IMG/VR virus record: IMGVR_UViG_2636415851_000001
Location: 1 to 64,000 of that record
Source of the DNA: a virus
Lineage: Duplodnaviria; Caudoviricetes
Strand: one strand, 5' to 3'
DNA length: 64,000 bases
The notes beneath the pieces are model-generated. The model was given only the letters and a program-made list of their open reading frames with translations. It did not search any database and had not been told where the DNA came from. The position numbers and the translations under genes were made by a program. Below, one piece after another: positions 5,823 to 39,306 of this stretch. The first letter of the stretch is position 1. Every line of letters starts with the position of its first letter.

Positions 5823-6307
5823 TGGAAGACGCCCTTCAGGATTGGGATGGAGAGGCAGGCGAGGCCAACGGCGATCGCGAAGACCGTCCATGCGATCCTC
5901 TTGCGCTTTCGTGAGCGAGCCGCACGTTGCAAGGCAGCCTGGGCGTCCTTCTCGGCGCGCTTCTCCCTCTCATCCGCCAGGTGGCGTAGGCCGGAGATGG
6001 CATAGTCGACATCATCTGGAGAAAGGTGCTGAACCATCCGGAGATCCCTGGCGCTGATCAGGATTTTCCTGTCGACCGAGTGCATTGCGAGTTCAGTCAG
6101 GTCATGGCAGCGGTCGATCTTGTGCCGGAGCTCGTCGCCGGAGAGGCTGCCGAGAAACGTCGGTGCGCTAGCGCGGTAGCGGGCGAGCTCCTCGTTGTAT
6201 TCTTTCTTCCTCACCTTGAAGTGGTGGAGGAATGGCCCTGTCTTCTCGAGAATCGTGCTGGCCCCAACGACGGTCATTGGGGGCACGTCGGTCGTCTTGT
6301 GCGTCAT
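5819..6307 (-). CDS. Hypothetical protein with C-terminal transmembrane helix
   Basis: MTHKTTD start; hydrophobic C-terminus after a basic patch. Confidence 0.6.
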   Translation of the reverse strand: MTHKTTDVPPMTVVGASTILEKTGPFLHHFKVRKKEYNEELARYRASAPTFLGSLSGDELRHKIDRCHDLTELAMHSVDRKILISARDLRMVQHLSPDDVDYAISGLRHLADEREKRAEKDAQAALQRAARSRKRKRIAWTVFAIAVGLACLSIPILKGVFQ

Positions 6308-6726
6308 GGTGAAACCTCGTCGCAGAGTTGAAGGAAGCGGTAACGCAGGGCAAACCAGTCGAAGCCTGGTGCACTGGAACCGGGCAGGGTGCCGGCGCGT
6401 GCGAATGCCTGGAGGCTGATGCACAGCTCCTCCTCGGCAAGGATCTCTACGGACGGCGCGTACTTGCCGTGAGCACAGCCCCAAACAACTCGAGAGGGGC
6501 CGCGATAGACCACCTCGCCGATCAGGGCGTGGGCGATCTCATGCTCGTGGGCATAGCGGAGGACATCGCCGCCATAGCCGCAGCGCTGCGCAAGAGCGAC
6601 GTACTCTGCCGTCATCTGAGGCTCTGCGCCGTAGCTTGTGCCGTCGGGGAAGTGGGTGGCTATCCAATCCGAACCGATGTCGATCCGGCAGAACAGCATC
6701 TGGATTGAACGGAGAGGCTTGGTCAC
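6304..6726 (-). CDS. Hypothetical protein with HExxH motif (possible metallopeptidase)
   Basis: GTG start after GGAGG; YAHEHEIAH motif. Confidence 0.55.
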   Translation of the reverse strand: MTKPLRSIQMLFCRIDIGSDWIATHFPDGTSYGAEPQMTAEYVALAQRCGYGGDVLRYAHEHEIAHALIGEVVYRGPSRVVWGCAHGKYAPSVEILAEEELCISLQAFARAGTLPGSSAPGFDWFALRYRFLQLCDEVSP

Positions 6727-27108: not shown

Positions 27109-27600
27109 CTACCCCTGCGGGATCGGGGTCGGCGTCTTCTGCCGGCTGACCGGCTTGAAGCGCCCCCTGTTCCGGTAGATGCCATCCGACAGGTTGTCGA
27201 GGACGTACCAGCCAGACGTAGTGAACACGATGAGGACCATGTGCTTCTGGCCGAGCGCTTTCCCGCGGCCGAGCCTCATCGAGGTGACGGGGATACCGGC
27301 TTTCACCAGGCGGTCCAGCTTGGTGACCGCGAAGTCGTCGCAGTCACCCTGCCGTCCGCCGATGGTCCAGGTGTCCAGCTTCCCATCCGCCACCCACACC
27401 ATGGAGCCGTTCACAGACTTGTTCACCTCCTCCAGCTTGGCGAGGTTGATGTCGGCCTCATGGAGAGGCGCCGTGTAGACTGACGTGTAGTACCAGGCAC
27501 GCGGTCCAGCGACGGCGCTGCCGCCGAACGCAAGCCAGGCTGCGATGCCTATCGCTGCGCACCGAACGATGGCGGCGCGTCCATATCTCATGCTGTTCAT
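27109..27600 (-). CDS. Secreted transglutaminase-like cysteine peptidase (BTLCP/LapG family)
   Basis: Signal peptide; GDCDDFAVTK, HMVL, VLDN Cys-His-Asp triad. Confidence 0.85.
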   Translation of the reverse strand: MNSMRYGRAAIVRCAAIGIAAWLAFGGSAVAGPRAWYYTSVYTAPLHEADINLAKLEEVNKSVNGSMVWVADGKLDTWTIGGRQGDCDDFAVTKLDRLVKAGIPVTSMRLGRGKALGQKHMVLIVFTTSGWYVLDNLSDGIYRNRGRFKPVSRQKTPTPIPQG

Positions 27601-27629
27601 GGCGGGTCTCCGAAAGGTTGGACACCCCC

Positions 27630-27713
27630 TCAAGGAGAGGGCGCGAGGTAGACAATTATGGCGACCACTGCGATCGCCAGCAATCCCATCCAGAAGTGAC
27701 GGTCCGGGTTCAT
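27630..27713 (-). CDS. 27 aa single-TM microprotein (MNPDRHFWMGLLAIAVVAIIVYLAPSP)
   Basis: Translated by hand; directly follows the beta-clamp stop. Confidence 0.5.
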   Translation of the reverse strand: MNPDRHFWMGLLAIAVVAIIVYLAPSP

Positions 27714-30238: not shown

Positions 30239-30499
30239 TTACGGGCGCCCCTTGATGATGCTGTAGGCAGTGGCCTCCGCTACGGCGCGCGGGTCGATGC
30301 GGTCGGGCGAGAACGGCGTCCAGTAATCTTGCGATGCCGGGCGACTCATGGGGTGAACCTCATGCCGGAAGAACAACCGCTTGAGCGGGTCGAATGAAAC
30401 ATAGATCCCCGCGGGGCGGACGTTTGGCCTGAGAACGAGCTGCCCGTCCTTCCTGACATTCCAATAGTTCAAGTCGAGCTCCAAGGTTGGGTCAGCCAT
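30239..30499 (-). CDS. Small protein, paralog family member 6 (VSFDPLKRLF...IDPRAVAEATAYSII)
   Basis: MADPTLEL start; shares motifs with the AAA+/VWA-linked paralogs. Confidence 0.65.
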   Translation of the reverse strand: MADPTLELDLNYWNVRKDGQLVLRPNVRPAGIYVSFDPLKRLFFRHEVHPMSRPASQDYWTPFSPDRIDPRAVAEATAYSIIKGRP

Positions 30500-30797
30500 C
30501 GGGTGGTAACCGAAGATCGCCGTGTTCCGCGAAGTGCTGCAGGTATGGGAGGAGATCCTTAACCATGTCCTGCGTGAGGTGCATCCGCGTGTTGAATACC
30601 GTGCCAGGCAGGAAGGGGTGCTGTGTCCAGCCTCGGTCGGGCAGAAGGATCTTCGGGTCGGCGTCGTCGCAGCCAAGCCAAAGAGACGCCTCGTTGGCGA
30701 GTGAGGACTCCTGCAGGCTACAGGACACGCCGGAGCGATCGACGAACTCAGCGACCACGAAGCCCCGTTGGGTGGTTTTCATCGCGAGAGGCATCAC
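30492..30797 (-). CDS. Phage hypothetical protein
   Basis: TQRGF..EFVDRSGVSCSLQESSLA...WLG...RMHL. Confidence 0.7.
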   Translation of the reverse strand: MMPLAMKTTQRGFVVAEFVDRSGVSCSLQESSLANEASLWLGCDDADPKILLPDRGWTQHPFLPGTVFNTRMHLTQDMVKDLLPYLQHFAEHGDLRLPPDG

Positions 30798-31273
30798 TGA
30801 GTCTCCAGCTTGGTGCGCAGATCGAGAAGAGAGCTGCCGACTGAAGCCAGCCAGGCTGTCTGCTCCTCCTCAGTGTACCGGTACCAGTCTGCGCCCTCGT
30901 CATGCTCCTCGCATTCCTCGCCGTCCGGCCCGAGCCAGCGCCCTTCATCAATGCAGCCGGGGAGGATCTCCTCGATGACGGAAAGGACCATGGCCTTCTC
31001 CGCGCGCAGCCGTTCAAGCTCTGCCTTCGATCCCGTCGGCAGCAGCTCGGAATCGTCGGCCAGACCGTAGAGGGTGATGGCAGAGGAGATGAAGTCTTCA
31101 CCTTCGAGCGGGATGTCCACGCCGTCCAGCATGTCGAGGGTGTCCGGTTTCTCAAGAGACCCCGCGTAGTCCGTAGAGACAGCAAGAGCTGCCTCCTCCT
31201 CGGTGTTGGCAGGGGTGTAGATGGTCATGCAGACCCATACCTCGGTGCCAATCAGTTCGCGTTCGTCATCCAT
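30794..31273 (-). CDS. Highly acidic hypothetical protein
   Basis: MDDERELI start after the motif and AGGAG; D/E-rich. Confidence 0.65.
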   Translation of the reverse strand: MDDERELIGTEVWVCMTIYTPANTEEEAALAVSTDYAGSLEKPDTLDMLDGVDIPLEGEDFISSAITLYGLADDSELLPTGSKAELERLRAEKAMVLSVIEEILPGCIDEGRWLGPDGEECEEHDEGADWYRYTEEEQTAWLASVGSSLLDLRTKLETQ

Positions 31274-31308
31274 GATTGTTCTCCTGCGTGCCATGGTTGG
31301 CTGGTGTT

Positions 31309-31626
31309 TTACGAGAGAGGGAGGCAGCCCCGCGGGGCGGCCGCCATGATGTAGCGGTACTCGTCCGGACTGTTGCGTTTGAGCCAGTCCAAAGCCTCAG
31401 CTTCCAGGCCGCCCGGGTTCTTGTCCGCCTCGTAGCAAACGTGGTCCCAAACAGCGTCGTCGTCGGGAAAGATGCGCGCCTCGTCGTCCTTCTGGAGCTG
31501 GTACTCAGCGTTTACGGAGCCGTCGCAGTGGAAGATAGCCCAGCCGAGAGGCATAGAGCGCTCGTTGATCCTGTCCCGAAGCCTTTCCTGTGCATCTGCT
31601 AGAACGAGGTCTCCGATGGAGGGCAT
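31309..31626 (-). CDS. Hypothetical protein
   Basis: MPSIGDL start after GGAGG. Confidence 0.6.
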   Translation of the reverse strand: MPSIGDLVLADAQERLRDRINERSMPLGWAIFHCDGSVNAEYQLQKDDEARIFPDDDAVWDHVCYEADKNPGGLEAEALDWLKRNSPDEYRYIMAAAPRGCLPLS

Positions 31627-31627
31627 G

Positions 31628-31864
31628 TCACTCCTCCACCTTGGTGAGCTGATCGAAGGTCCATTCCTCGCCGTCCTCGTCGAGGAAGACGAAGCTGCCG
31701 CCGCGCTTGACCGGCTTCTGCTCGTCCCAAATGACGTCGCTGCCGTTGCCGTCGTACTCAACCTCCGTCCCGTCCTCCGATATGGACTCGAGGCCGACGA
31801 TGCAGGGCACCTTCTCCAGAATGCAGGTGATCGGCATGCCGTTGGGTGCTTTGAACTTGGGCAT
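31628..31864 (-). CDS. Small acidic hypothetical protein
   Basis: 78 aa ORF with GGAGG RBS. Confidence 0.65.
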   Translation of the reverse strand: MPKFKAPNGMPITCILEKVPCIVGLESISEDGTEVEYDGNGSDVIWDEQKPVKRGGSFVFLDEDGEEWTFDQLTKVEE

Positions 31865-31865
31865 G

Positions 31866-32084
31866 TCACGCGCCCTCCGCTTCGCTATTGTTGCCGTAGA
31901 TCGAAGCCTCCTCCTCGATCTCGAGAACGTCGCCTCGTTGTGTGGTCATGAAGCCGTGGCCTTGGCCGCCAGCCTCAATGAAATTCTCGAGCGAGGTGAG
32001 CAGGTTCTCTGCGATCTTCCGACTGTCTGCATCGGCACTTGCTTCACCCTTAAACCGGAGGGTGATCCAGACTTCCTGGTCCAT
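31866..32084 (-). CDS. Small acidic hypothetical protein
   Basis: MDQEVWIT start after the motif and AAGGAG. Confidence 0.6.
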   Translation of the reverse strand: MDQEVWITLRFKGEASADADSRKIAENLLTSLENFIEAGGQGHGFMTTQRGDVLEIEEEASIYGNNSEAEGA

Positions 32085-32115
32085 GTTGCGTCTCCTTCTT
32101 GCCATAGGTGGCGGG

Positions 32116-33288
32116 TTAGATGCTGATGTTGATGCACTCGCCGAACGGCGGCGATAGCGTGGCGACGTCCTTCGACGAGCGGCCATAGACACCCCACAGC
32201 ACCGGCATGGGTGGCTCATCGCCGAAGTCATAGACTCCCATATCGGTGAGGTAGATGCAGGCTCGAGCGTCTGGGAACTGGTCGGTGATCTTCTCGAAGG
32301 TATCCGAGAAGGCCGTGCCTCCACCGCCGGCGGGGTTGATGGTGAGCTCGTCGCCGTTCTCGAACTGGTCGATGCGGGCAACGGAGGCGTCGGCATAGAT
32401 CACGGTCAGCTTGTCGACCGCGCCTTCCTGATAGGCACCGTTCACCTCTGCGGCGAAGTCCTTCAGGATGTCGTTGTCGATCGAGCCGGATGTGTCGACG
32501 GCAATCACGATGTGGCTGACGCCGTCCGAGATCAGGCCCGGGGTGATGATGCCGTGCGGAATCATCCGACGGTTAGGCTTGTGCCAGGCAAAGTCCCTCG
32601 TCATGGACTCGTCGATGAAGCGCCGCAGCACCGCACGCCAGTCCACCTTGGGAGCAAGCAGCTCGTCTATCAGGCGGGAGAGGGAAGCCGGGAGCTTGCC
32701 GGCTTGCGCTGCCTTGGCAACCATGGCTGCCTGCCGGATCTTCGTCTGCATCTCGGCCTGCAGTTCTGCCTTGGCTGCCTCGTCGTTCTGCGGGCAGCCG
32801 TCAACCGTGGTGCCGCAGCCGCCCCTGTCGCCCTGTCCTTCGCTCGAGTCATCGCCATCGTTCTCGTCGTCGAGCAGACGGTAGATCTCTTCGGCAGACA
32901 GGCCGGTGTAGCGCGGGTCGATCAGGCCGATCTTCGGCATCTTGCCGACGCCGCAGGCAACGAGCTCGCCGTTGATGGCGTAGTCGCATGCGTCGTTGAA
33001 GCGGCCGGGCTTGCGGTGGCCGCGACGGATGTGGTGCTCGAGCGCATTGTGCATGACCTCGTGGGCACGGACGAAGACGACCTCGGGTACCGTCAGATCC
33101 TCGACGAACTTCGGGTTCCACCACAGGCGGCGGCCATCGGTTGCCATCGTGTCGATCTGCGGGTGGTCGGGCTCGACCTCGATCATCTCCAGCTGCGCAT
33201 TGAGCACGCCGAAGAATGGGTGGTCCCACAGAAGCGAGGTCTGCGCGGCGAGCATCTTGTCGGCCGGCGACAGTTTGGGCTGTGCCAT
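32116..33288 (-). CDS. HExxH metallopeptidase + VWA domain protein (DUF2201-like)
   Basis: TMATDG, AHEVMH, NDACDYAIN, VDWR..LRRF, MIDAS DTSGS, GGGGTAF, LTD. Confidence 0.9.
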   Translation of the reverse strand: MAQPKLSPADKMLAAQTSLLWDHPFFGVLNAQLEMIEVEPDHPQIDTMATDGRRLWWNPKFVEDLTVPEVVFVRAHEVMHNALEHHIRRGHRKPGRFNDACDYAINGELVACGVGKMPKIGLIDPRYTGLSAEEIYRLLDDENDGDDSSEGQGDRGGCGTTVDGCPQNDEAAKAELQAEMQTKIRQAAMVAKAAQAGKLPASLSRLIDELLAPKVDWRAVLRRFIDESMTRDFAWHKPNRRMIPHGIITPGLISDGVSHIVIAVDTSGSIDNDILKDFAAEVNGAYQEGAVDKLTVIYADASVARIDQFENGDELTINPAGGGGTAFSDTFEKITDQFPDARACIYLTDMGVYDFGDEPPMPVLWGVYGRSSKDVATLSPPFGECINISI

Positions 33289-33334
33289 TGCGGTTCTCCT
33301 TGATTGGGGTGGGGTGATGGGGCAGGCCGTCACG

Positions 33335-33670
33335 TTATCGGTAAAGGAAGTCGCCGAAAGGTGAGGCGACCGCCGTCGCGGGTGCCGGATCCGGTAGGGA
33401 AGAGCGACTATCAGCCAGCGATGCGGCGATGCAGCGCGCCACCTCCTCCGGGCCGATAGCACGCTTGGCCAGCTCGATCTGCGCGGGGGTGACCGGCTTC
33501 TCCTTCTGCCAGGGGCTGACCTTGGTGTAGCGGCGCTTGGCCGTGCCGCTGAAGGCACGCTTCCTCGGGTCGTAGGTGATGTCGATCACCTGCAGCGCCG
33601 ACTTCTTGCGGCGGTCGGTGACCTCCCATCGGTATTCGCCGCGCTTGCGGACATTGAAGCCGGTGGTCAT
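33335..33670 (-). CDS. Small protein, paralog family member 5 (ITYDPRKRAF...IGPEEVARCIAASL)
   Basis: MTTGFNV start with ATGA coupling. Confidence 0.7.
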   Translation of the reverse strand: MTTGFNVRKRGEYRWEVTDRRKKSALQVIDITYDPRKRAFSGTAKRRYTKVSPWQKEKPVTPAQIELAKRAIGPEEVARCIAASLADSRSSLPDPAPATAVASPFGDFLYR

Positions 33671-34056
33671 GAGGCTTTGATCCTTAATGCCAAGGCCATC
33701 GCCTTTGCGATGTCCTCCGGTGAGAGTTTCGATTTCAGGATGCTGGAGATCGTCCCTTCCATGACGGGGGAGTCGTCGAGCCATGCGTCGGGGTGAACGT
33801 CCTCGTTCTTCACCTCCCGCGGGATGCCGAGTTGGGCGAGACCGGATCGGTTGCGCTTTCCGTCGAGCTCGCCGATGGGGATGTTGCTGGCCGACCACTT
33901 GCGCTTGCGAGGGTCGAAGACCAGCACCCAATGGGCAGTCGTCTTGTCGCCGCGGATGCCGTTGAAGTACCAGCGGAGATCCGTGGTGGATGGAGAGCGC
34001 GGGGCTGTCTGCTCCGGATGGAACGGGCCAAACACCTTGCGGATGATAGGCATCAT
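33667..34056 (-). CDS. Small protein, paralog family member 4 (LVFDPRKRKW...LSPEDIAKAMALAL)
   Basis: 129 aa ORF; GGAGG RBS; coupled. Confidence 0.75.
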   Translation of the reverse strand: MMPIIRKVFGPFHPEQTAPRSPSTTDLRWYFNGIRGDKTTAHWVLVFDPRKRKWSASNIPIGELDGKRNRSGLAQLGIPREVKNEDVHPDAWLDDSPVMEGTISSILKSKLSPEDIAKAMALALRIKAS

Positions 34057-34400
34057 TTCCTCCCGTGGGTGAGGGACAGGGCGACGCAGCGCGCCACCTG
34101 TTCCGGGGTGAGTTGGGACTTGAGCAAGTCCCTCAGCTTGCCGCTGCCGTTGACCTCACGGCCAAGCCCGAAGAGATCGCCGGGCTGCTGGAGCTTTCTC
34201 CATTGGCCCTCGTTCGGCGCCGCCCCGTTGGAGGCGCCGAACAGTCTCGTATGGGCGTGGTAGATGAGGCTCAACTTGCGAACCTCACCTCCCGTCGTGC
34301 GGCCGGCGAAGGTGAAGACGATCTTGTCGTCTTTCGCCTTCACCTTGATGGGACCGAGCAGCCACACGATCGACGCGGCTGTCTCCCGTTCCTCAGCCAA
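34053..34400 (-). CDS. Small protein, paralog family member 3 (LIYHAHTRLF...LTPEQVARCVALSL)
   Basis: TTG start overlapping the ATPase stop. Confidence 0.7.
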   Translation of the reverse strand: MAEERETAASIVWLLGPIKVKAKDDKIVFTFAGRTTGGEVRKLSLIYHAHTRLFGASNGAAPNEGQWRKLQQPGDLFGLGREVNGSGKLRDLLKSQLTPEQVARCVALSLTHGRK

Positions 34401-35424
34401 TGATCACGTCCTGATTTTCGGCAGACCAGTTGATGAAGGCCTGCGTGTGGGACAGGCCCGGGTCACGGCGCACCGCATCGACCATGAACATGATGCGGAA
34501 GTCGCGCGCCGGCAGCCGCTTCATGTAGGCGTCGGCATTGGCCAGCGTCCGCTGGTCGACCTTGCGTGCCAGACCTGCGGCGATGGCGAAGCGGGCCGAG
34601 ACATCCTCCGGCAGCGGTGCGCTGTTCGGGTTGGCGAGCACCAGGTCGAGCGACGGCAGCCCCTGATAGACACGGACGAAGCCCTCGAACTCTGCCGCTG
34701 CACCATCGCCGACGATTCCGCTGACCAGAGAATAGCGGCGGCTGGTCTTCCTCTCCTTGTCTGCCTGCTCGCTCGGCTTGATGTACTTGAATGCCTCCTC
34801 CCATGCCCGGGGCGTCGGGAAGGCGCGCTGGTCTGGCGTGTCCGGCATCTTGTGGATCAGCTCCGGACGGAAGCGCAGGAAGGCGATGCCGATCGGGTCG
34901 ACGCCCTTCTTGCTGAAGTGCATGAGGTGGACGTTGTCGTGGTTCGGGCTGAGGTCCGGATCCACATCGATGTGAGCGAAGCGGTTGGCGAGCGCCGTCG
35001 GCATGCGCTGTGCTGCGGCACGGTCCGACTGGCGGTTACCGGCTGCCACCACACGCCAGCCAGGCGGCAGGGTATAGTCGCCAACCTTGCGATCGAGAAC
35101 CAGGCCGAACATGGCGGCCATCATCGAGGGAGGCGCGGCGTTCAACTCGTCGAGGAAGAGGATGCCTTCCTCGCCATCGCGCTCCACCTGCGGGAACTCG
35201 TCCGGCACCTTCCACTTAGTAGTGTCGCCGTGCAGATCCGGCAGACCCATGAGGGCGACCGAGTCACGGGTGGATGCGCGGAAGTCAACCAGTCCCCACT
35301 TGCGTTCCTTGGTAATCTGCGCCGTGGCCTGGGACTTGCCGATGCCGGGCGGTCCCCACAGGAAAGCCGGTGTGTTGCCGTCGAGATAATCCTGAAGGTT
35401 CAGAACAGCTGTGCCGATGTGCAT
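34393..35424 (-). CDS. MoxR-like AAA+ ATPase
   Basis: Walker A GPPGIGKS, Walker B ILFLDE, AAGNR, ALANRF, TPRAW. Confidence 0.92.
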   Translation of the reverse strand: MHIGTAVLNLQDYLDGNTPAFLWGPPGIGKSQATAQITKERKWGLVDFRASTRDSVALMGLPDLHGDTTKWKVPDEFPQVERDGEEGILFLDELNAAPPSMMAAMFGLVLDRKVGDYTLPPGWRVVAAGNRQSDRAAAQRMPTALANRFAHIDVDPDLSPNHDNVHLMHFSKKGVDPIGIAFLRFRPELIHKMPDTPDQRAFPTPRAWEEAFKYIKPSEQADKERKTSRRYSLVSGIVGDGAAAEFEGFVRVYQGLPSLDLVLANPNSAPLPEDVSARFAIAAGLARKVDQRTLANADAYMKRLPARDFRIMFMVDAVRRDPGLSHTQAFINWSAENQDVIIG

Positions 35425-35807
35425 GTCTTGTCTCCTTGGTGTGCCATGCGTGGCGGGGTTGGTAGCTGGCCGAGTAGCCGCACCCTTGTGAGGTCGGCGA
35501 AGTCGGCAGGGGAAAGCAACGTCTGCGCTGCAAGAGCGAGCTTGTCCCGGGGGAAGCGGGGAAAAGCGAGGTTCGGATATTCGTCGAAATTGGACGGTAT
35601 CAGGTAGTCGTTGAAGTTGCTGGAGTGGGTGGGCACCCGACCGGGATAGACCGGACGGTGACGTGCCTTGACCCGCTTCTCGAAAGTGTCGACGTGCACC
35701 TCGTAGCGGTGGGTGAGGCCGGTCTCTTCCTCGTCAAAGGCGAACCAGAACTTCAGCTTGGTGCCGGTGATCTGCCGGGCGTAGGGACCGTAGAGCGCGC
35801 CCTTCAT
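35400..35807 (-). CDS. Small protein, paralog family member 2 (most divergent; LSPADFADLTRVRLL)
   Basis: 135 aa ORF; ALYGPY N-terminal motif. Confidence 0.65.
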   Translation of the reverse strand: MKGALYGPYARQITGTKLKFWFAFDEEETGLTHRYEVHVDTFEKRVKARHRPVYPGRVPTHSSNFNDYLIPSNFDEYPNLAFPRFPRDKLALAAQTLLSPADFADLTRVRLLGQLPTPPRMAHQGDKTCTSAQLF

Positions 35808-35810
35808 GGG

Positions 35811-36176
35811 TCACGTCCAGACGATGCGGTCAGGGAAGAGAACGACCGGGCCGGAGATGGCCGGGATGGACTCAGGATCAAGCCCGGGCTCGCGGGTCAG
35901 CGCATTGTTGCGGTAGATCGCGGTGCCCCTGATGTTGCGGATGTGTCGACCGTTGATGCTCGACGTCTCGCCGACGAACATATCCCTACGGTTGCCCTCA
36001 AAGAGCACGGCCACATGCTCGAAAGGCTCGTCGAAAACTCCGGCCATCGCGCGCTTCAGCGCCTCGTAATTGGAGGACTTGCCGGCGATGGTGACGAGCC
36101 GTTCCTCGGTTGCGCCGAGCACCGGGATGATGAGCATTCGAGTTTGCGGAGGAGGCGGCTGTGTCAGCTTGCCCAT
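35811..36176 (-). CDS. DUF3846-like hypothetical protein
   Basis: FEHV...DMFVGE...N..GT...ISGPVVLF pattern. Confidence 0.6.
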   Translation of the reverse strand: MGKLTQPPPPQTRMLIIPVLGATEERLVTIAGKSSNYEALKRAMAGVFDEPFEHVAVLFEGNRRDMFVGETSSINGRHIRNIRGTAIYRNNALTREPGLDPESIPAISGPVVLFPDRIVWT

Positions 36177-36214
36177 TTCATTCTCCTGTCGTGCATGATT
36201 GCTGGGGTGAAAGT

Positions 36215-36613
36215 TTAGGGGATGGCGAGGTAGCCGGGGCCGTAGCACTGGCGGCATTCCAGCCTATCGAAATCGTAGCCGCGAGCAGCTGCACGATAGA
36301 GCATCATCAGCTGGCCCTCTCGCTGCCTAGTGCGGCGTAGCCGGCTGTTGATGGTCGGCTTGGCGTCTAGCTCATCGAGCGCGAACGTGCGGCCGCAAGC
36401 GTCGCAGCAAGCAGTCTCGACTATCTCGCACCCGCAAGTGATGCAGCGGTCGCCTCCGTCCATGGCAGTCTCGCCACAGTTTTCGCAGGACCACTCATCC
36501 TCGTCATCTTCATCGCCAAGGATGGGGTGCTCGTCACACTTGGGGTCTTGGACGAACTCGCGACCACGGAAAAAACATCCGCAACTGAGTGTCACGATGG
36601 AGGGGGAGGGCAT
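36215..36613 (-). CDS. Multi-Zn-ribbon hypothetical protein
   Basis: Several CxxC pairs; preceded by the motif and AGGAG. Confidence 0.6.
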   Translation of the reverse strand: MPSPSIVTLSCGCFFRGREFVQDPKCDEHPILGDEDDEDEWSCENCGETAMDGGDRCITCGCEIVETACCDACGRTFALDELDAKPTINSRLRRTRQREGQLMMLYRAAARGYDFDRLECRQCYGPGYLAIP

Positions 36614-36782
36614 GTCGTTCTCCTGTGGTGCATGATTGCGAGAGAAAGGGGACGCCACCTGGATGATGAGCGCCCCCCTCGTGTGTGCGGCGGAATAAGG
36701 GATTACTTCATGTCGACCTCCGTTCGCTGTTGGTCCTCAGGGTGAAACCCTGCCCGGCAGTGCGGGCCAGGCAGGATTGGGA

Positions 36783-37691
36783 TCAGGCGAGGAAGCCGGA
36801 GACGGTGTCGAGGATCGACTGTGCCTCGGCGGCCACGTCGCGGCGCTTGCCCTCGTCTTCGCGAAGGACGGACGCATCGTATTCGGCCAGCGGTTTCAGC
36901 TGCTCGGCCATGGCGGCGAGCTTCGGGTCGCCGGTGATGTTGAGGGCGGGCAGGATCTTGATCAGGTCGCGGACGTTCTCGACCAGCGAGTCCCGGAAGA
37001 TGCCCTCGGCCTTGTCGCCCTTGCCCTTGGCGGGCTTGTAGGCATTCAGCCGTTCGACCATGCGGCCGGCGACGTCGGCGACGCGCTTGTAGACGTCCTG
37101 CACGGCGGCGGTGGTCGCCTTGGTCAGCTGCTCCTCGATGTCGGCGCGGATGATGGATGCTTGCGCCTCGCTCATGTCGACGCGGAAGTCGGAGGAGGAG
37201 GGGACCGGCATCACCTTGCAGTCGAGCGAGAACTTGGCGCGCAGCGTGTCGACGTCCGGGTAATCCTCGTCCTTGAACATGCCATTGAGGCGGACTCGAG
37301 CATCATTCACATAGCCCGGATACTTGGCGAGGAAGTCGTTGACCGCGTCATCGAACTTCACCTTCTGCTGGCGGATCCAGCCCATGTGGGCGAGGTAGGC
37401 CTCGGCTGCCATGATGCGGCTGCCGTTGTCCATCCACGGCAGGGTGCGCGTGAGGAAGTCGGTGCGCGTGGCGCTGACGATCTTGACGATCGGCTCGAGC
37501 GCTTCCTTGGGCAGGAGCAGCTTATTGTAGCGTCCGGCGTCGGCCGCGGCGTTGTGCTGCTGGTTCACCTCGTCGGTGATCTCGCGGTCGAGGCGGCGGC
37601 CGGACCATTGCGAGATGGACAGGCTCACCAGCATTGCCCGGGTGGACAGGGAAGCGGTGGCGGCGGGTGCAATGGGAGTCATAGCGTTCAT
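36783..37691 (-). CDS. DUF3150-like helical protein typically linked to MoxR/VWA pairs
   Basis: AMLVSLSISQWSGRRLD, TLPW, LNGMF...DYP, IFRDSLVEN, LNITGDP motifs. Confidence 0.75.
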   Translation of the reverse strand: MNAMTPIAPAATASLSTRAMLVSLSISQWSGRRLDREITDEVNQQHNAAADAGRYNKLLLPKEALEPIVKIVSATRTDFLTRTLPWMDNGSRIMAAEAYLAHMGWIRQQKVKFDDAVNDFLAKYPGYVNDARVRLNGMFKDEDYPDVDTLRAKFSLDCKVMPVPSSSDFRVDMSEAQASIIRADIEEQLTKATTAAVQDVYKRVADVAGRMVERLNAYKPAKGKGDKAEGIFRDSLVENVRDLIKILPALNITGDPKLAAMAEQLKPLAEYDASVLREDEGKRRDVAAEAQSILDTVSGFLA

Positions 37692-37738
37692 GTCAGTCTC
37701 CGTTGGGTGCCATGATTGGCGGGGTGAAGTCGGTAGAG

Positions 37739-37885
37739 TCAGGCGGGGCGTAGCAGCTCCGCAATCAGGACGGTGATGGCCGCGCCGATGAGGAGGTCGA
37801 CGTACTCGAGTCCCATGCGGCGAAGCGCGAGAGCTGCGACACATTCCGCAAGCGCGATGAACAGGATCAGGGGTCTCAGCTTCAT
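37739..37885 (-). CDS. Small two-TM membrane protein
   Basis: MKLRPLILFIALAECVAAL... Confidence 0.5.
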   Translation of the reverse strand: MKLRPLILFIALAECVAALALRRMGLEYVDLLIGAAITVLIAELLRPA

Positions 37886-37941
37886 AGGGTTTCCTTCTGG
37901 ATGCGAGGGCGATCCTACACGCACGGATGCGTGGGGAGAAG

Positions 37942-38238
37942 TCAGGCAACAAGCGAGGCGCGGGTTGCCCTTGCGATCTCCTCCGGCGGGAGGAGGGATA
38001 CGAGGAAGTCTACCAGCTTGTGCGGAAGCGGAACCTCGTGGTCGAAGGACGCCTCGTTATCGTCCGCGCGATAGAGCGTGGCGTAGAAAGTCCGGTGCTG
38101 GACGTCGTAGGAAAGCCGCCACCAACGGCGCATGCCCTTGGGCTTGGAGTCGTAGACGGTCCAGTCGATGTAGGCGTCAGGAGCGAGGTTGTCCGGGGTG
38201 ATATTGCCAAACAGGTGGCGGAGGCGGTCCGGGTTCAT
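37942..38238 (-). CDS. Small protein, paralog family member 1 (LSYDVQHRTF...LPPEEIARATRASL)
   Basis: 98 aa ORF; ATGA-coupled. Confidence 0.75.
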   Translation of the reverse strand: MNPDRLRHLFGNITPDNLAPDAYIDWTVYDSKPKGMRRWWRLSYDVQHRTFYATLYRADDNEASFDHEVPLPHKLVDFLVSLLPPEEIARATRASLVA

Positions 38239-39047
38239 CCGACGATCTCCCCTTCCTCGTCGAAGGTGTAGTCGGCGAGGGCTTCGTCGACCGCCTCATT
38301 GGACATGAGGTATTCGTCCTCCTGCCGGAGCTGCTCATAGATCCAGTCCATGAAGGCGCGGAGGGTGGCCTTGACCTCGGATTCAAACTCAAGGCGGAGG
38401 AGGCGGTGCTTTACGAGCATAGCTCTCCATACCATGGCCTGCAGTCCGCTAAAGTCGCGGTCATCGTCGTCGCGATAGACCTCGATGCGAGTGCAGCCTG
38501 AGTGGTAGTAGCTGCCGGAGTGCTCGACGTGCACGGATAGATCCGGGATGAGCCCCAGGCATCGCTCGGAGAAGTCGGCCAGGTCCAGCGCGATCTCGTG
38601 CAATTTCGTGTCGAGCGGGGCGTGCTCCATGACGGCGGTCAGGGAGCCGATAGGATCCTTGACCGGGTACCAGTTGCCCTCGAAGCACGCGCCATCCCCT
38701 TGGCAGGAAAAGCCGGAGAACCAGATCTGCGGACCGCTGATGATGGCACCGCTGGCAAGCGTGTGGTGCTTGCGCTTGATCTGGATGCCCATCATGGCGG
38801 CGATGGTGTCGGCGTCTTCATAGATCGAGTCCCACCAGTCGTAGTCGATGCCCGTGGCGCGATAGTCGTCGCGCGCCTTTTCCTTGGCGCGGTCGGACAG
38901 TCCGTCGAAGGAAAACTCGGTCTGCTCGTCCTCGACGTCGCCCATCTCGGGCACAAGCGCGAGGGCAGGCTGGTTGACGTAGACGGGGGCACCTCCCGCA
39001 ATGGCGCGGTTGACGGCGCGGGTGAGTGCTGCGCGTGCGGCGTTCAT
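38235..39047 (-). CDS. Acidic phage early protein (IWFSGFSCQGDGACF family)
   Basis: FDGLSDRAKEKAR...DWWDSIYED...FSGFSCQGDGACF...YEQL..EDEYL motifs. Confidence 0.7.
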   Translation of the reverse strand: MNAARAALTRAVNRAIAGGAPVYVNQPALALVPEMGDVEDEQTEFSFDGLSDRAKEKARDDYRATGIDYDWWDSIYEDADTIAAMMGIQIKRKHHTLASGAIISGPQIWFSGFSCQGDGACFEGNWYPVKDPIGSLTAVMEHAPLDTKLHEIALDLADFSERCLGLIPDLSVHVEHSGSYYHSGCTRIEVYRDDDDRDFSGLQAMVWRAMLVKHRLLRLEFESEVKATLRAFMDWIYEQLRQEDEYLMSNEAVDEALADYTFDEEGEIVG

Positions 39048-39048
39048 G

Positions 39049-39306
39049 TCAGTCTCCCTGAATTGCGAGGGCTTCGTCGCCGAGCTGGTTGTAGAGGGCG
39101 TCGATGATGGCGAAGCGGCTGCGATAGACGGCCAGGTCGCGCTGGTATGCGTCAGGCTCGCCGATGTAGTCGCGGCCATTGGGTGCCGTCTCGCCGAGCG
39201 AGGTCATGACGGAGCGAAGATCCTGCCGGACGGCAATGCGCGCCTCCACGAGGGCGTCGCGGCTGGTGCCGTTGAGGTTGACGATCGGGCGCATGAGGTC
39301 AGCCAT
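39049..39306 (-). CDS. Hypothetical protein (PIVNLNGTS family)
   Basis: PxVNLNGTS...PNGRDY; GGAGG RBS. Confidence 0.65.
   Translation of the reverse strand: MADLMRPIVNLNGTSRDALVEARIAVRQDLRSVMTSLGETAPNGRDYIGEPDAYQRDLAVYRSRFAIIDALYNQLGDEALAIQGD

What the first reader, a model, noticed from the sequence alone, without database searches (positions are those of the whole stretch)
30239..38238. Six divergent small paralogs with a shared C-terminal tag, interleaved with a MoxR AAA+ / VWA-metallopeptidase / DUF3150-like module: a candidate adaptor-programmed phage proteolysis or remodelling system
Seen in sequence: six 86-135 aa ORFs share motifs despite low overall identity. C-terminal helix: LPPEEIARATRASL (37942-38238), LSPADFADLTRVRLL (35400-35807), LTPEQVARCVALSL (34053-34400), LSPEDIAKAMALAL (33667-34056), IGPEEVARCIAASL (33335-33670), IDPRAVAEATAYSII (30239-30499). 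Central strand-turn: LSYDVQHRTF, VHVDTFEKRV, LIYHAHTRLF, LVFDPRKRKW, ITYDPRKRAF, VSFDPLKRLF. Four also have an N-terminal hydrophobic-G-P/N motif (LFGN, LYGP, LLGP, VFGP). Three form a translationally coupled chain between the ATPase and the VWA-peptidase, one overlaps the ATPase start, and one lies close upstream of the DUF3150-like gene. Established: MoxR ATPases work with VWA partners as chaperones or remodellers, and this VWA protein carries a HExxH peptidase domain. Inference: the conserved helix docks on the machine while the variable body picks different host targets such as defence proteins, like interchangeable substrate adaptors. The proteins could instead be tagged cargo. I know of no description of such an array.
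Basis: partly seen in the sequence, partly recalled or inferred. Interest (0 to 1): 0.92.

Follow-up and report, generated by a model that had tools for sequence, protein, structure and literature searches.

The report
Small-protein family around phage MoxR-VWA
A prophage carries six old, fast-changing copies of an undescribed small protein packed around an ATP-driven remodelling enzyme and its protease partner; related prophages share the layout, so the small proteins probably work with that machine, but their job is untested.

Summary
All six minus-strand ORFs belong to one protein superfamily. Four (p1 37942, p3 34053, p4 33667, p5 33335) are each recovered by leave-one-out HMMs as the top hit among 64,476 genome ORFs. 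The other two (p2 35400, p6 30239) join by profile-profile comparison: scores 54 and 35, against maxima of 22 and 17 in 100 column shuffles each.

The family matches nothing in Pfam, PHROGs, NCBIfam or PADLOC, and two confident models find no convincing solved fold. It is rare: 65 small representatives among 1.84 billion proteins.

In 15 of 15 related prophage elements, 2-6 members fill the slot between an N4 gp24-type MoxR ATPase and a gp25-type zincin-VWA protein. Start and stop codons mostly overlap.

The paralogues are old (70 of 71 have their best hit in another element). They change 5-10 times faster than the core genes and are gained and lost as whole genes.

The "C-terminal tag" reading is not supported: the helix is part of the folded core, and the variable part is an internal insert.

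This scan has noted the same kind of array before on other genomes.

The parts
37942..38238 (-). p1, 98 aa, acidic member (pI 6.0). Its start overlaps the stop of the upstream gene by 4 nt. It ends 250 nt upstream of the DUF3150-like gene.
   Evidence: Leave-one-out HMM E 6e-6 / 8e-7. Orthologues lie in the same position in L009 and L010. pI.
35400..35807 (-). p2, 135 aa, divergent subfamily. Overlaps the MoxR start by 25 nt.
   Evidence: hhalign of a 14-sequence alignment against the family: probability 95.4%, P 1.6e-8, 0 of 100 shuffles reach the score. AF2 model pLDDT 87.8 with the same element order as p4. A p2-type gene lies directly upstream of MoxR in 8 of 15 elements.
34053..34400 (-). 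p3, 115 aa, TTG start overlapping the MoxR stop by 8 nt. First gene of the array between MoxR and the zincin-VWA gene.
   Evidence: Leave-one-out E 1.5e-6. In the soil relative its central part is under 85% identical while both ends align.
33667..34056 (-). p4, 129 aa, the best-conserved subfamily (48-62% identical orthologues). ATGA overlap with p3.
   Evidence: AF2 model pLDDT 85.8, pTM 0.75. Absent together with p5 from a 94-99% identical soil relative.
33335..33670 (-). p5, 111 aa, lacks the N-terminal G-P strand. ATGA overlap with p4. Ends 46 nt before the zincin-VWA start.
   Evidence: Leave-one-out E 1e-5 / 1e-7. Orthologues in L009, L011 and L012.
30239..30499 (-). p6, 86 aa, short divergent member lacking the first strand. 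About 1.6 kb downstream of the zincin-VWA gene.
   Evidence: hhalign of a 3-sequence alignment: probability 83.4%, P 8.5e-6, 0 of 100 shuffles reach the score. Orthologues in L009 (53%) and L012 (59%). No relative in the 5.8-billion-protein word search.
34393..35424 (-). MoxR-type AAA+ ATPase, 343 aa, N4 gp24 type.
   Evidence: Pfam AAA_5 27.6 bits (cut-off 22). PHROG 1297 E 6e-81. Walker A and Walker B strings can be read in the translation. tblastn hits are annotated 'N4 gp24-like'.
32116..33288 (-). Zincin-VWA protein, 390 aa, N4 gp25 type.
   Evidence: DUF2201_N E 3e-48 and DUF2201 E 1e-22. PHROG 1314 E 8e-97. The HExxH..H and MIDAS (DxSxS, GGGGT, TD) residues are invariant in 14-16 orthologues.
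36783..37691 (-). DUF3150-like protein, 302 aa.
   Evidence: Pfam DUF3150 E 2e-4, 21.1 bits, below the 24.9 cut-off. 53-77% identical orthologues in all 14 related elements (13 of them were given start coordinates).
35811..36257 (-). Conserved small basic protein (pI 9.8) of no family, between the DUF3150-like gene and p2/MoxR. Not a member of the paralogue family.
   Evidence: BLASTP orthologues in 11 of 14 related elements. No Pfam or PHROG match. pI.

Best explanation
The six genes encode members of an undescribed family of small (86-135 aa), mostly basic proteins. Each has a four-stranded beta-meander, an internal insert of very variable length and sequence, and two C-terminal helices.

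I read them as dedicated partner proteins of the phage's N4 gp24/gp25-type machine, a MoxR AAA+ ATPase plus a zincin-VWA protein. I put about 0.7 on their working with the machine in some role.

The single role I favour, at about 0.3, is interchangeable specificity subunits. In this reading the conserved scaffold (beta-sheet plus C-terminal helices) binds the VWA/MIDAS or ATPase part. The variable insert recognises different target proteins or nucleic acids. The ATPase then remodels these targets and the zincin may cut them.

Shown: family membership; fixed position and coupling inside the module; old paralogy; fast divergence with purifying selection; whole-gene gain and loss.

Inferred: any physical contact, the direction of action, and the targets.
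For: 1. One family, six copies, found nowhere else in the genome.

2. In 15 of 15 related elements, 2-6 detected members sit between the MoxR stop and the zincin-VWA start. They cover 86% of the 21,157 nt of that slot. The remaining gaps of about 300 nt hold ORFs with weak colinear matches to the family HMM (E 0.006-6.4). Nothing but this family was recognised in the slot.

3. The array genes have stop/start overlaps of 4-8 nt with each other and with MoxR, and p2 overlaps the MoxR start by 25 nt. The three core genes instead carry their own strong GGAGA ribosome-binding sites.

4. 70 of 71 members have their best BLAST hit in another element, so the subfamilies are old and maintained.

5. L021 against L022: core genes dN 0.03-0.07, small genes dN 0.20-0.41, dN/dS 0.19-0.33. 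These are real proteins under selection that change 5-10 times faster than the core. L009 against L028: MoxR 93% identical, small proteins 22-73%.

6. Conservation is concentrated in the scaffold. p4 residues 60-100 vary greatly in length and sequence. In a soil relative that is 94-99% identical in the core genes, the middles of p1 and p3 fall below 85% while their ends still align.

7. The MIDAS and HExxH residues of the partner protein are invariant. In characterised MoxR-VWA pairs the VWA protein is the part that holds the target (established knowledge, recalled: CbbQ-CbbO, RavA-ViaA, NorQ-NorD, Rea1).
Against: All 15 elements are one phage lineage from Rhizobium-type hosts, and L006/L007/L008 are near-duplicates. 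Shared synteny is therefore partly shared descent rather than independent evidence.

The machine exists without these proteins: Verrucomicrobia loci, Rhizobium phage RHph_N38 and cyanophage S-TIM66 have the two core genes abutting.

A near-identical soil relative lacks p4 and p5 cleanly, so single members are dispensable.

p1 and p6 lie away from the ATPase-VWA slot.

No fused form of a small protein with a machine component was found among the 68 profile hits.
Confidence: 0.3

Rival explanations
1. The small proteins are clients or cargo. They are the substrates that the MoxR/zincin-VWA machine matures, cuts, unfolds or loads. Examples would be small basic DNA- or RNA-binding proteins, or proteins packed into the virion. 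The conserved scaffold is then the recognition element for the machine.
For: The position and coupling evidence is the same as for the best explanation. In characterised MoxR-VWA systems the client is usually encoded next to the pair (recalled knowledge). The family is basic: median pI 9.9, and 59 of 67 members are above 9. Iyer et al. 2021 proposed that the MoxR / peptidase-vWA pair of jumbo phages processes structural proteins (PMC7824862, passages read).
Against: No cleavage motif or removable tag is visible. The most conserved segment is a core helix at pLDDT about 96. The operon holds replication and recombination genes and lies on the strand opposite to the head and tail genes. A client set that varies from 2 to 8 and is absent from other carriers of the machine implies that the machine has other work.
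Confidence: 0.25
2. The proteins are independent small effectors, such as nucleic-acid binders or anti-defence proteins. They have accumulated in a permissive, well-expressed slot of the early operon and have no physical link to the machine.
For: Fast divergence, whole-gene gain and loss, and raised dS (0.7-1.4 against 0.36-0.53 in the core) all fit accessory genes exchanged by recombination. p1 and p6 sit outside the slot. The members are basic. Both models have SpoVG as best structural neighbour (Z 5.2 with 74 of 87 residues aligned; Z 4.7 with 81 of 87), with Pur-alpha near Z 4. These are nucleic-acid binders, but the scores are within the tool's stated noise.
Against: A general hot spot should collect unrelated genes, but here only one superfamily was recognised in the slot in 15 of 15 elements. 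The stop/start overlaps tie expression to MoxR. Insertion between two genes that overlap in other phages is an unusual site for unrelated cargo.
Confidence: 0.2
3. The proteins are regulators or structural subunits of the machine. They could be stoichiometric inhibitors that keep the zincin or ATPase idle until needed, or assembly factors for the hexamer, rather than target selectors.
For: Tight coupling to MoxR. The scaffold is conserved, with near-invariant R52 and a frequently acidic pair at 114/115 that could occupy the MIDAS or active site (inference). p4-type and p2-type members are the most widely kept.
Against: A regulator need not exist in 2-8 diverged copies with a hypervariable insert. 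The machine works without them in other lineages.
Confidence: 0.15
4. The resemblance is due to chance or base composition, and the ORFs are not related genes.
For: Overall identity is only 24-34%. p2 and p6 fail the leave-one-out test.
Against: Leave-one-out E-values of 1e-7 to 5e-4 against 64,476 ORFs. 0 of 100 shuffles reach the observed profile scores. 65 full-length small relatives exist in other samples. dN/dS is 0.19-0.33. Two confident models share the same topology.
Confidence: 0.01

Closest known systems
Coliphage N4 gp24 / gp25 pair (PHROG 1297 ATPase + PHROG 1314; Pfam AAA_5 + DUF2201_N/DUF2201)
   Same: The two core proteins match these families strongly. gp24 and gp25 (vWFA) are 2 of the 14 core genes of N4-like phages and are middle transcripts (PMC4193335, passages read). 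Their function is unknown there too.
   Different: In the N4-like Rhizobium phage RHph_N38 the two genes overlap with nothing between them. Here 3 paralogous small genes are inserted between them and 3 more lie around them. A DUF3150-like gene and a sliding-clamp gene also belong to the conserved neighbourhood.
MoxR / peptidase-vWA 'chaperone-cochaperone' pair of group 2.2 jumbo phages (Iyer et al., Viruses 2021, PMC7824862)
   Same: The domain pair is the same: a MoxR ATPase plus a vWA protein with an N-terminal metallopeptidase. The authors proposed that it acts as a chaperone with peptidolytic processing (passages read).
   Different: That paper proposes a role in virion assembly. The two passages I read mention no associated family of small paralogues, and I did not read the rest of the paper. 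Here the pair lies in an early, replication-type operon of a temperate phage.
Cellular MoxR-VWA remodelling pairs (RavA-ViaA, CbbQ-CbbO, NorQ-NorD) and Rea1-MIDAS with its UBL-domain ligands
   Same: An AAA_5-type ATPase works with a MIDAS-bearing VWA protein that holds the target. The MIDAS residues are intact here. The abstracts of PMC3893208, PMC10585395 and PMC4660213 were seen in a search listing. The Rea1 comparison is recalled.
   Different: Those systems have one fixed client and no peptidase. None is described with an array of diversifying small partners.
T4-type internal proteins (a hypervariable locus of small basic proteins that share a short capsid-targeting sequence cut by the prohead protease); recalled, not checked in a paper here
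   Same: Several divergent small basic phage proteins share a conserved element, are encoded next to each other, vary between related phages, and there is a protease in the picture.
   Different: In T4 only a short N-terminal tag is shared and it is removed. Here the whole fold is shared, the conserved helix is C-terminal and structural, and the genes are not in the head module.

Membership tests
MoxR-type AAA+ ATPase (Pfam AAA_5; PHROG 1297) | Profile match above the curated cut-off | tested here: met
   AAA_5 27.6 bits against a cut-off of 22. PHROG 1297 E 6.2e-81 over residues 9-341.
MoxR-type AAA+ ATPase (Pfam AAA_5; PHROG 1297) | Walker A (GxxGxGKS/T) and Walker B (hhhhDE) | tested here: met
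   GPPGIGKS and ILFLDE can be read in the translation of 34393-35424.
Zincin-VWA protein (Pfam DUF2201_N + DUF2201; PHROG 1314) | Both domains above the curated cut-off, in N-to-C order | tested here: met
   DUF2201_N 165 bits (cut-off 23.2) and DUF2201 80.6 bits (cut-off 26.4).
Zincin-VWA protein (Pfam DUF2201_N + DUF2201; PHROG 1314) | HExxH metal site and MIDAS residues (DxSxS, T, D) present | tested here: met
   H76, E77, H80, H85 and D265, S267, S269, T325, D349 are invariant in 14 orthologues. The same columns are invariant when two Verrucomicrobia sequences are added.
DUF3150 (Pfam PF11348) | Profile match above the gathering score | tested here: not met
   21.1 bits against a cut-off of 24.9, E 2.1e-4, covering profile positions 5-227 of 257. 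It is therefore called 'DUF3150-like'.
Any filed family for the six small proteins (Pfam, PHROGs, NCBIfam, PADLOC) | Profile match at E <= 0.01-0.1 | tested here: not met
   0 families for each of the six in all four libraries. Among 67 family members scanned against Pfam at E <= 5, no family is matched by more than 2 members.
SpoVG / PUR-like nucleic-acid-binding fold | Structural match clearly above background | tested here: inconclusive
   SpoVG 2i9z_A is the top VIA hit for both models (Z 5.2, rmsd 3.8, 74 aligned; Z 4.7, rmsd 4.7, 81 aligned). Pur-alpha gives Z 3.8-4.0. The tool states that Z under 8 is common for unrelated chains. Foldseek finds nothing at E <= 1e-3.
Small copies derived from the DUF3150 protein (as an earlier scan note reported for a marine phage) | Profile-profile similarity of the small family to the DUF3150-like protein | tested here: not met
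   hhalign of A3 against the 13-sequence DUF3150-like alignment A9: probability 0.2%, 17 columns.
Physical partner of the MoxR/VWA machine (adaptor, client or regulator) | Direct binding to the ATPase, the VWA-zincin or the DUF3150-like protein | not testable with these tools

The most novel reading that the evidence does not exclude
The small proteins are a diversifying set of plug-in specificity subunits. They would turn the widespread but uncharacterised N4 gp24/gp25-type MoxR / zincin-VWA machine into a programmable remodeller or protease. Each variable insert would recognise a different host protein, for example a defence or replication factor. Phages would swap or drop cassettes as hosts change.
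Probability: 0.15. Interest if true: 0.85.

Novelty: new variant of a known kind. Interest (0 to 1): 0.62.

Why it matters
The MoxR / zincin-VWA pair is a core gene pair of N4-like phages, and tblastn with this ATPase finds relatives in 844 phage records and 143 plasmid records. Despite this spread, none of the papers I read assigns the pair a function; they list the genes as unknown or offer a proposal.

A lineage in which the pair has acquired a conserved yet fast-diversifying set of small partner proteins offers a handle. The small proteins are natural candidates for what the machine touches. They can be expressed one at a time, and natural variants with and without particular members exist.

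If they prove to be target selectors, this would be a new way for phages to diversify one enzymatic machine. If they prove to be clients, they would name the first substrates of this machine.

Tried and rejected
Searches that found nothing or led nowhere:
- A viral-contig scan with p1 alone found no relative.
- The 67-sequence alignment A3 was too diverse for the search for related loci.
- A metagenome-contig scan with A5 matched 152 stretches but no relative.
- tblastn of p4 found no match in 50,697 phage records or 72,556 plasmid records.
- megablast of the 9.2 kb region found no match in either collection.
- The family profile found 0 matches in 300 other genomes of the same order.
- The ESM Atlas gave no usable feature hit and only TM scores up to 0.43.
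- Foldseek against the PDB (two models) and against BFVD gave nothing at E <= 1e-3.
- A PDB sequence-profile search gave a best E of 0.054.
- No RNA holder was listed for the region.

Ideas considered and rejected:
- Derivation from the DUF3150 protein, a lead from an earlier scan note: rejected.
- The three long profile hits (P0033, P0038, P0052): these are repeat proteins, not fusions.
- A helix-turn-helix reading of the C-terminus: rejected by inspection, because the protein ends about 10 residues after the helix, leaving no recognition helix.
- The four-stranded units assembling into a hetero-oligomeric propeller (blade-like VIA hits): not favoured because copy number varies from 2 to 8, but untested.
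- An acidic Cys-containing loop specific to the array-bearing VWA clade as a docking site: only an observation.

I took no other route to a complex prediction.

Supplementary files were not asked for.

Full report
SETTING

The window is bases 1,345,989-1,409,988 of the largest contig of a 4.58 Mb, three-contig genome. It holds a prophage:
- A lambda-type large terminase, a lambda-family portal and a capsid protein lie on the plus strand from about 43 kb.
- RecT, a PDDEXK-type nuclease, a DnaB-type helicase and a C5 methylase lie to the left.

The finding lies in a minus-strand operon that runs from about 41.6 kb to 27.7 kb and ends with a DnaN-type sliding-clamp gene.

All six ORFs are present as described. 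A MAFFT alignment shows 24-34% identity to p1.

Pairwise BLASTP (database size set to 100,000) gives:
- p1-p5: 8e-6
- p1-p3: 2e-3
- p3-p5: 2e-3
- p3-p4: 3e-3
- p4-p5: 0.14
- nothing significant for p2 or p6.

As a stricter test I built HMMs that left one protein out and searched all 64,476 six-frame ORFs of at least 40 aa in the genome. p1, p3, p4 and p5 each came back as the best non-training hit (E 6e-6, 1.5e-6, 5e-4 and 1e-5 with three training sequences; better with five). p2 and p6 did not come back.

A profile of the four core members against 1.84 billion representative proteins found 68 hits at E <= 1e-3, 14 of them at E <= 1e-10. 65 of the 68 are proteins of 96-144 aa matched end to end, among them the window's own p1 and p3. 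The three long hits are repeat proteins and not relatives.

With the enlarged family (A3, 67 sequences), the two doubtful ORFs join at profile level:
- The p2 subfamily (14 sequences) aligns over 94 columns at probability 95.4%, P 1.6e-8, score 54.1.
- The p6 subfamily (3 sequences, two taken from related loci) aligns over 61 columns at probability 83.4%, P 8.5e-6, score 35.2.
- In 100 column shuffles of each query the best null scores were 22.4 and 16.9.

A superfamily HMM finds exactly these six ORFs in the genome, and the next ORF has E 0.25. So all six are related. p2 and p6 are divergent branches, and the resemblance is far beyond chance.

WHAT THE PROTEINS LOOK LIKE

AlphaFold2 with the 67-sequence alignment models p4 at mean pLDDT 85.8 and pTM 0.75. 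The elements, in order, are:
- four antiparallel strands (residues 5-16, 27-35, 40-48, 53-59);
- a poorly defined stretch (60-100, block means 60-87);
- two C-terminal helices (103-109 and 113-128, pLDDT about 96).

p2, modelled from its own 13-sequence alignment, reaches pLDDT 87.8 and pTM 0.80. It has the same order: four strands, a loop region, two helices and a disordered tail.

In 114 non-identical family sequences the conserved positions are mostly core residues: W29, F31, L45, F54, L107, L111, A117 and A121. Also conserved are G10-P11 (90% and 95%), the near-invariant R52 (94%), and P113/E114 (about 65%). Positions 60-100 vary greatly in length and composition.

The variable element is an internal insert.

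The family is basic: median pI 9.9, with 59 of 67 members above 9. The p1 type is acidic, with p1 itself at pI 6.0.

Neither model has a convincing structural neighbour:
- Foldseek finds nothing at E <= 1e-3 in the PDB or BFVD.
- The exhaustive aligner puts SpoVG first for both models (Z 5.2 and 4.7), followed by Pur-alpha and single propeller blades near Z 4. The tool itself calls this range background.

No Pfam, PHROG, NCBIfam or PADLOC model matches any of the six. No Pfam family recurs among the 67 members.

THE NEIGHBOURS

- 34393-35424 is a MoxR-type AAA+ ATPase (AAA_5; PHROG 1297).
- 32116-33288 is a zincin-VWA protein (DUF2201_N + DUF2201; PHROG 1314). Its HExxH..H and MIDAS residues are invariant in its orthologues. 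Its start is at 33288.
- 36783-37691 matches DUF3150 only below Pfam's cut-off.

tblastn with the ATPase finds 844 phage records and 143 plasmid records, all below 60% identity. They include records annotated 'N4 gp24-like'.

In the papers I read:
- gp24 (unknown) and gp25 (vWFA) are 2 of the 14 core genes of N4-like phages and are middle transcripts (PMC4193335, passages).
- Iyer et al. noted a MoxR / metallopeptidase-vWA pair in jumbo phages and proposed a role in virion assembly (PMC7824862, passages).

Full-text searches for DUF3150/DUF2201, for MoxR + phage + von Willebrand + metallopeptidase, and for N4-like + vWFA listed no title or abstract about an associated small-protein family. I read passages of only two of the listed papers.

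DOES THE FAMILY TRAVEL WITH THE MODULE?

Scans with a p4-type alignment and with the ATPase brought in 14 distinct related elements:
- IMG/VR prophage contigs;
- genome contigs titled Ensifer, Rhizobium, Ancylobacter and Peteryoungia.

Their ATPases are 61-77% identical to the window's.

All 14, like the window, show the same gene order: first operon gene, DUF3150-like, (basic 148-aa protein), (p2 type), MoxR, array, zincin-VWA, and, in 11 of the 14, the clamp gene.

Detected members per element range from 2 to 8. Those between the MoxR stop and the zincin-VWA start range from 2 to 6.

Detected members cover 86% of the 21,157 nt of that slot. Each remaining gap of about 300 nt holds an ORF with a weak colinear match to the family HMM (E 0.006-6.4; not counted as members).

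A p2-type gene lies directly upstream of MoxR in 8 of 15 elements, upstream of the DUF3150-like gene in 3, and was not found in 4.

More distant versions of the pair have no such genes, and there the two core genes abut or overlap:
- three Verrucomicrobia loci (ATPase 37-38% identical);
- Rhizobium phage RHph_N38;
- cyanophage S-TIM66.

Caveats:
- The 15 elements are one lineage, and L006, L007 and L008 are near-duplicates.
- All 65 small representatives have BLAST similarity to members seen in these loci, but 46 of the 67 sequences compared (65 representatives plus p4 and p5) match at under 50% identity.

HOW THE FAMILY EVOLVES

70 of 71 members have their best BLAST hit in another element rather than in their own (L006 and L008 were left out as near-duplicates). 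The paralogues are therefore old and the subfamilies are maintained.

They change much faster than the core:
- L021 against L022: MoxR, zincin-VWA and DUF3150-like have dN 0.03-0.07 and dS 0.36-0.53. The five array genes have dN 0.20-0.41, dS 0.7-1.4 where it could be calculated, and dN/dS 0.19-0.33.
- L009 against L028: the ATPases are 93% identical, and the small proteins' best matches are 22-73%.

The low dN/dS shows real, constrained proteins. The raised dS suggests exchange by recombination as well as fast change.

Contigs of three soil runs from one study are colinear with the window over 11 kb, and record 3 of run X2 shows the following:
- Differences from the window: 5.5% in the zincin-VWA gene, 6.4% across MoxR, p2 and part of the 148-aa protein gene, and 1.2% in the DUF3150-like gene.
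- The contigs join 33309 to 34052 with three other letters between. p4 and p5 are therefore cleanly absent and only a p3-type gene remains.
- The middles of p3 (34130-34296) and p1 (38015-38149) fall below 85% identity, while the stretches that encode their C-terminal helices still align.
- The Cys-rich gene at 36215-36658 is mostly absent.
- In a fourth run, from another study, contigs cover the core genes but do not bridge the slot.

These are contigs of a metagenome, so the joints are credible (sides of 49-79 letters, three runs) but not independent of one another.

WHAT IT MOST LIKELY IS

The evidence for a shared pathway with the MoxR / zincin-VWA machine is:
- one superfamily fills a fixed slot inside a two-gene unit that is contiguous elsewhere;
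- the array genes have overlapping stops and starts, while the core genes have their own strong ribosome-binding sites;
- the position is retained despite high turnover of the occupants.

I put about 0.7 on the small proteins working with the machine in some role. A conserved scaffold with a hypervariable insert, several diverged copies and cassette-like gain and loss is what one expects of interchangeable recognition subunits, and I favour that role (0.3). In known MoxR-VWA pairs the VWA/MIDAS protein holds the target. The frequent acidic pair at 114/115 and the invariant R52 are candidates for such a contact, but this is inference only.

The rival readings are:
- clients or cargo of the machine (0.25);
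- independent small binders or anti-defence proteins collected in a permissive slot (0.2);
- regulators or subunits of the machine (0.15).

Nothing here shows binding, proteolysis or a host target.

COMPARISON WITH EARLIER NOTES OF THIS SCAN

Three earlier notes describe the same kind of array on other genomes:
- ten copies, in two notes on one stretch;
- five copies in a Rhizobiales prophage.

Their follow-up verdicts were similar to mine. I did not see their sequences.

A fourth note reports a marine phage in which the small copies derive from the DUF3150 protein. I tested that idea for this family and it fails (probability 0.2%).

Notes on this window mention a start-associated motif. I saw a shared string upstream of the three core genes but did not pursue it.

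VERDICT

Noticed in passing
window 33289-34052 and 36174-36610, compared with soil-run contigs: A relative that is 94-99% identical in the core genes lacks p4 + p5 (joint 33309 | 3 letters | 34052). It also lacks most of the Cys-rich gene 36215-36658 (joint 36173 to 36611). The region 30801-31633 is not alignable either.
   Followed up: partly
window 33289-33333, 35425-35469, 37692-37736 (upstream of the three core genes): The DUF3150-like and MoxR genes share an upstream string of the type CATGGCAC.C.AA.GGAGAC just before the ATG, and the zincin-VWA gene has a similar GGAGA site. The small genes lack this and depend on stop/start overlaps. This is probably the 'start-associated motif' of earlier notes on this window.
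   Followed up: partly
window 27109-27633 (-): A 174-aa protein with a hydrophobic N-terminus matches Peptidase_C93, the bacterial transglutaminase-like cysteine proteinase (E 1e-19). It lies just downstream of the phage clamp gene.
   Followed up: no
window 32116-33288 (-), protein residues about 140-170: The zincin-VWA proteins of the array-bearing lineage carry an acidic loop with conserved Cys (..GGCG..D[GA]C..). The loop is absent from the Verrucomicrobia, RHph_N38 and S-TIM66 orthologues.
   Followed up: no
L013:6100-6431: The first array member of the Ensifer contig is split over two reading frames (6100-6243 and 6120-6431). This may be a frameshift or an assembly error.
   Followed up: no
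window 35811-36257 (-): A second small basic protein (148 aa, pI 9.8) of no known family is conserved between the DUF3150-like gene and MoxR in 11 of 14 related elements. It is not a member of the paralogue family.
   Followed up: partly
window 38235-39179 (-): A 314-aa acidic protein (pI 4.6) matches PHROG 5162 (unknown function, E 2e-26). It is conserved upstream of p1 or of the DUF3150-like gene in several relatives.
   Followed up: no
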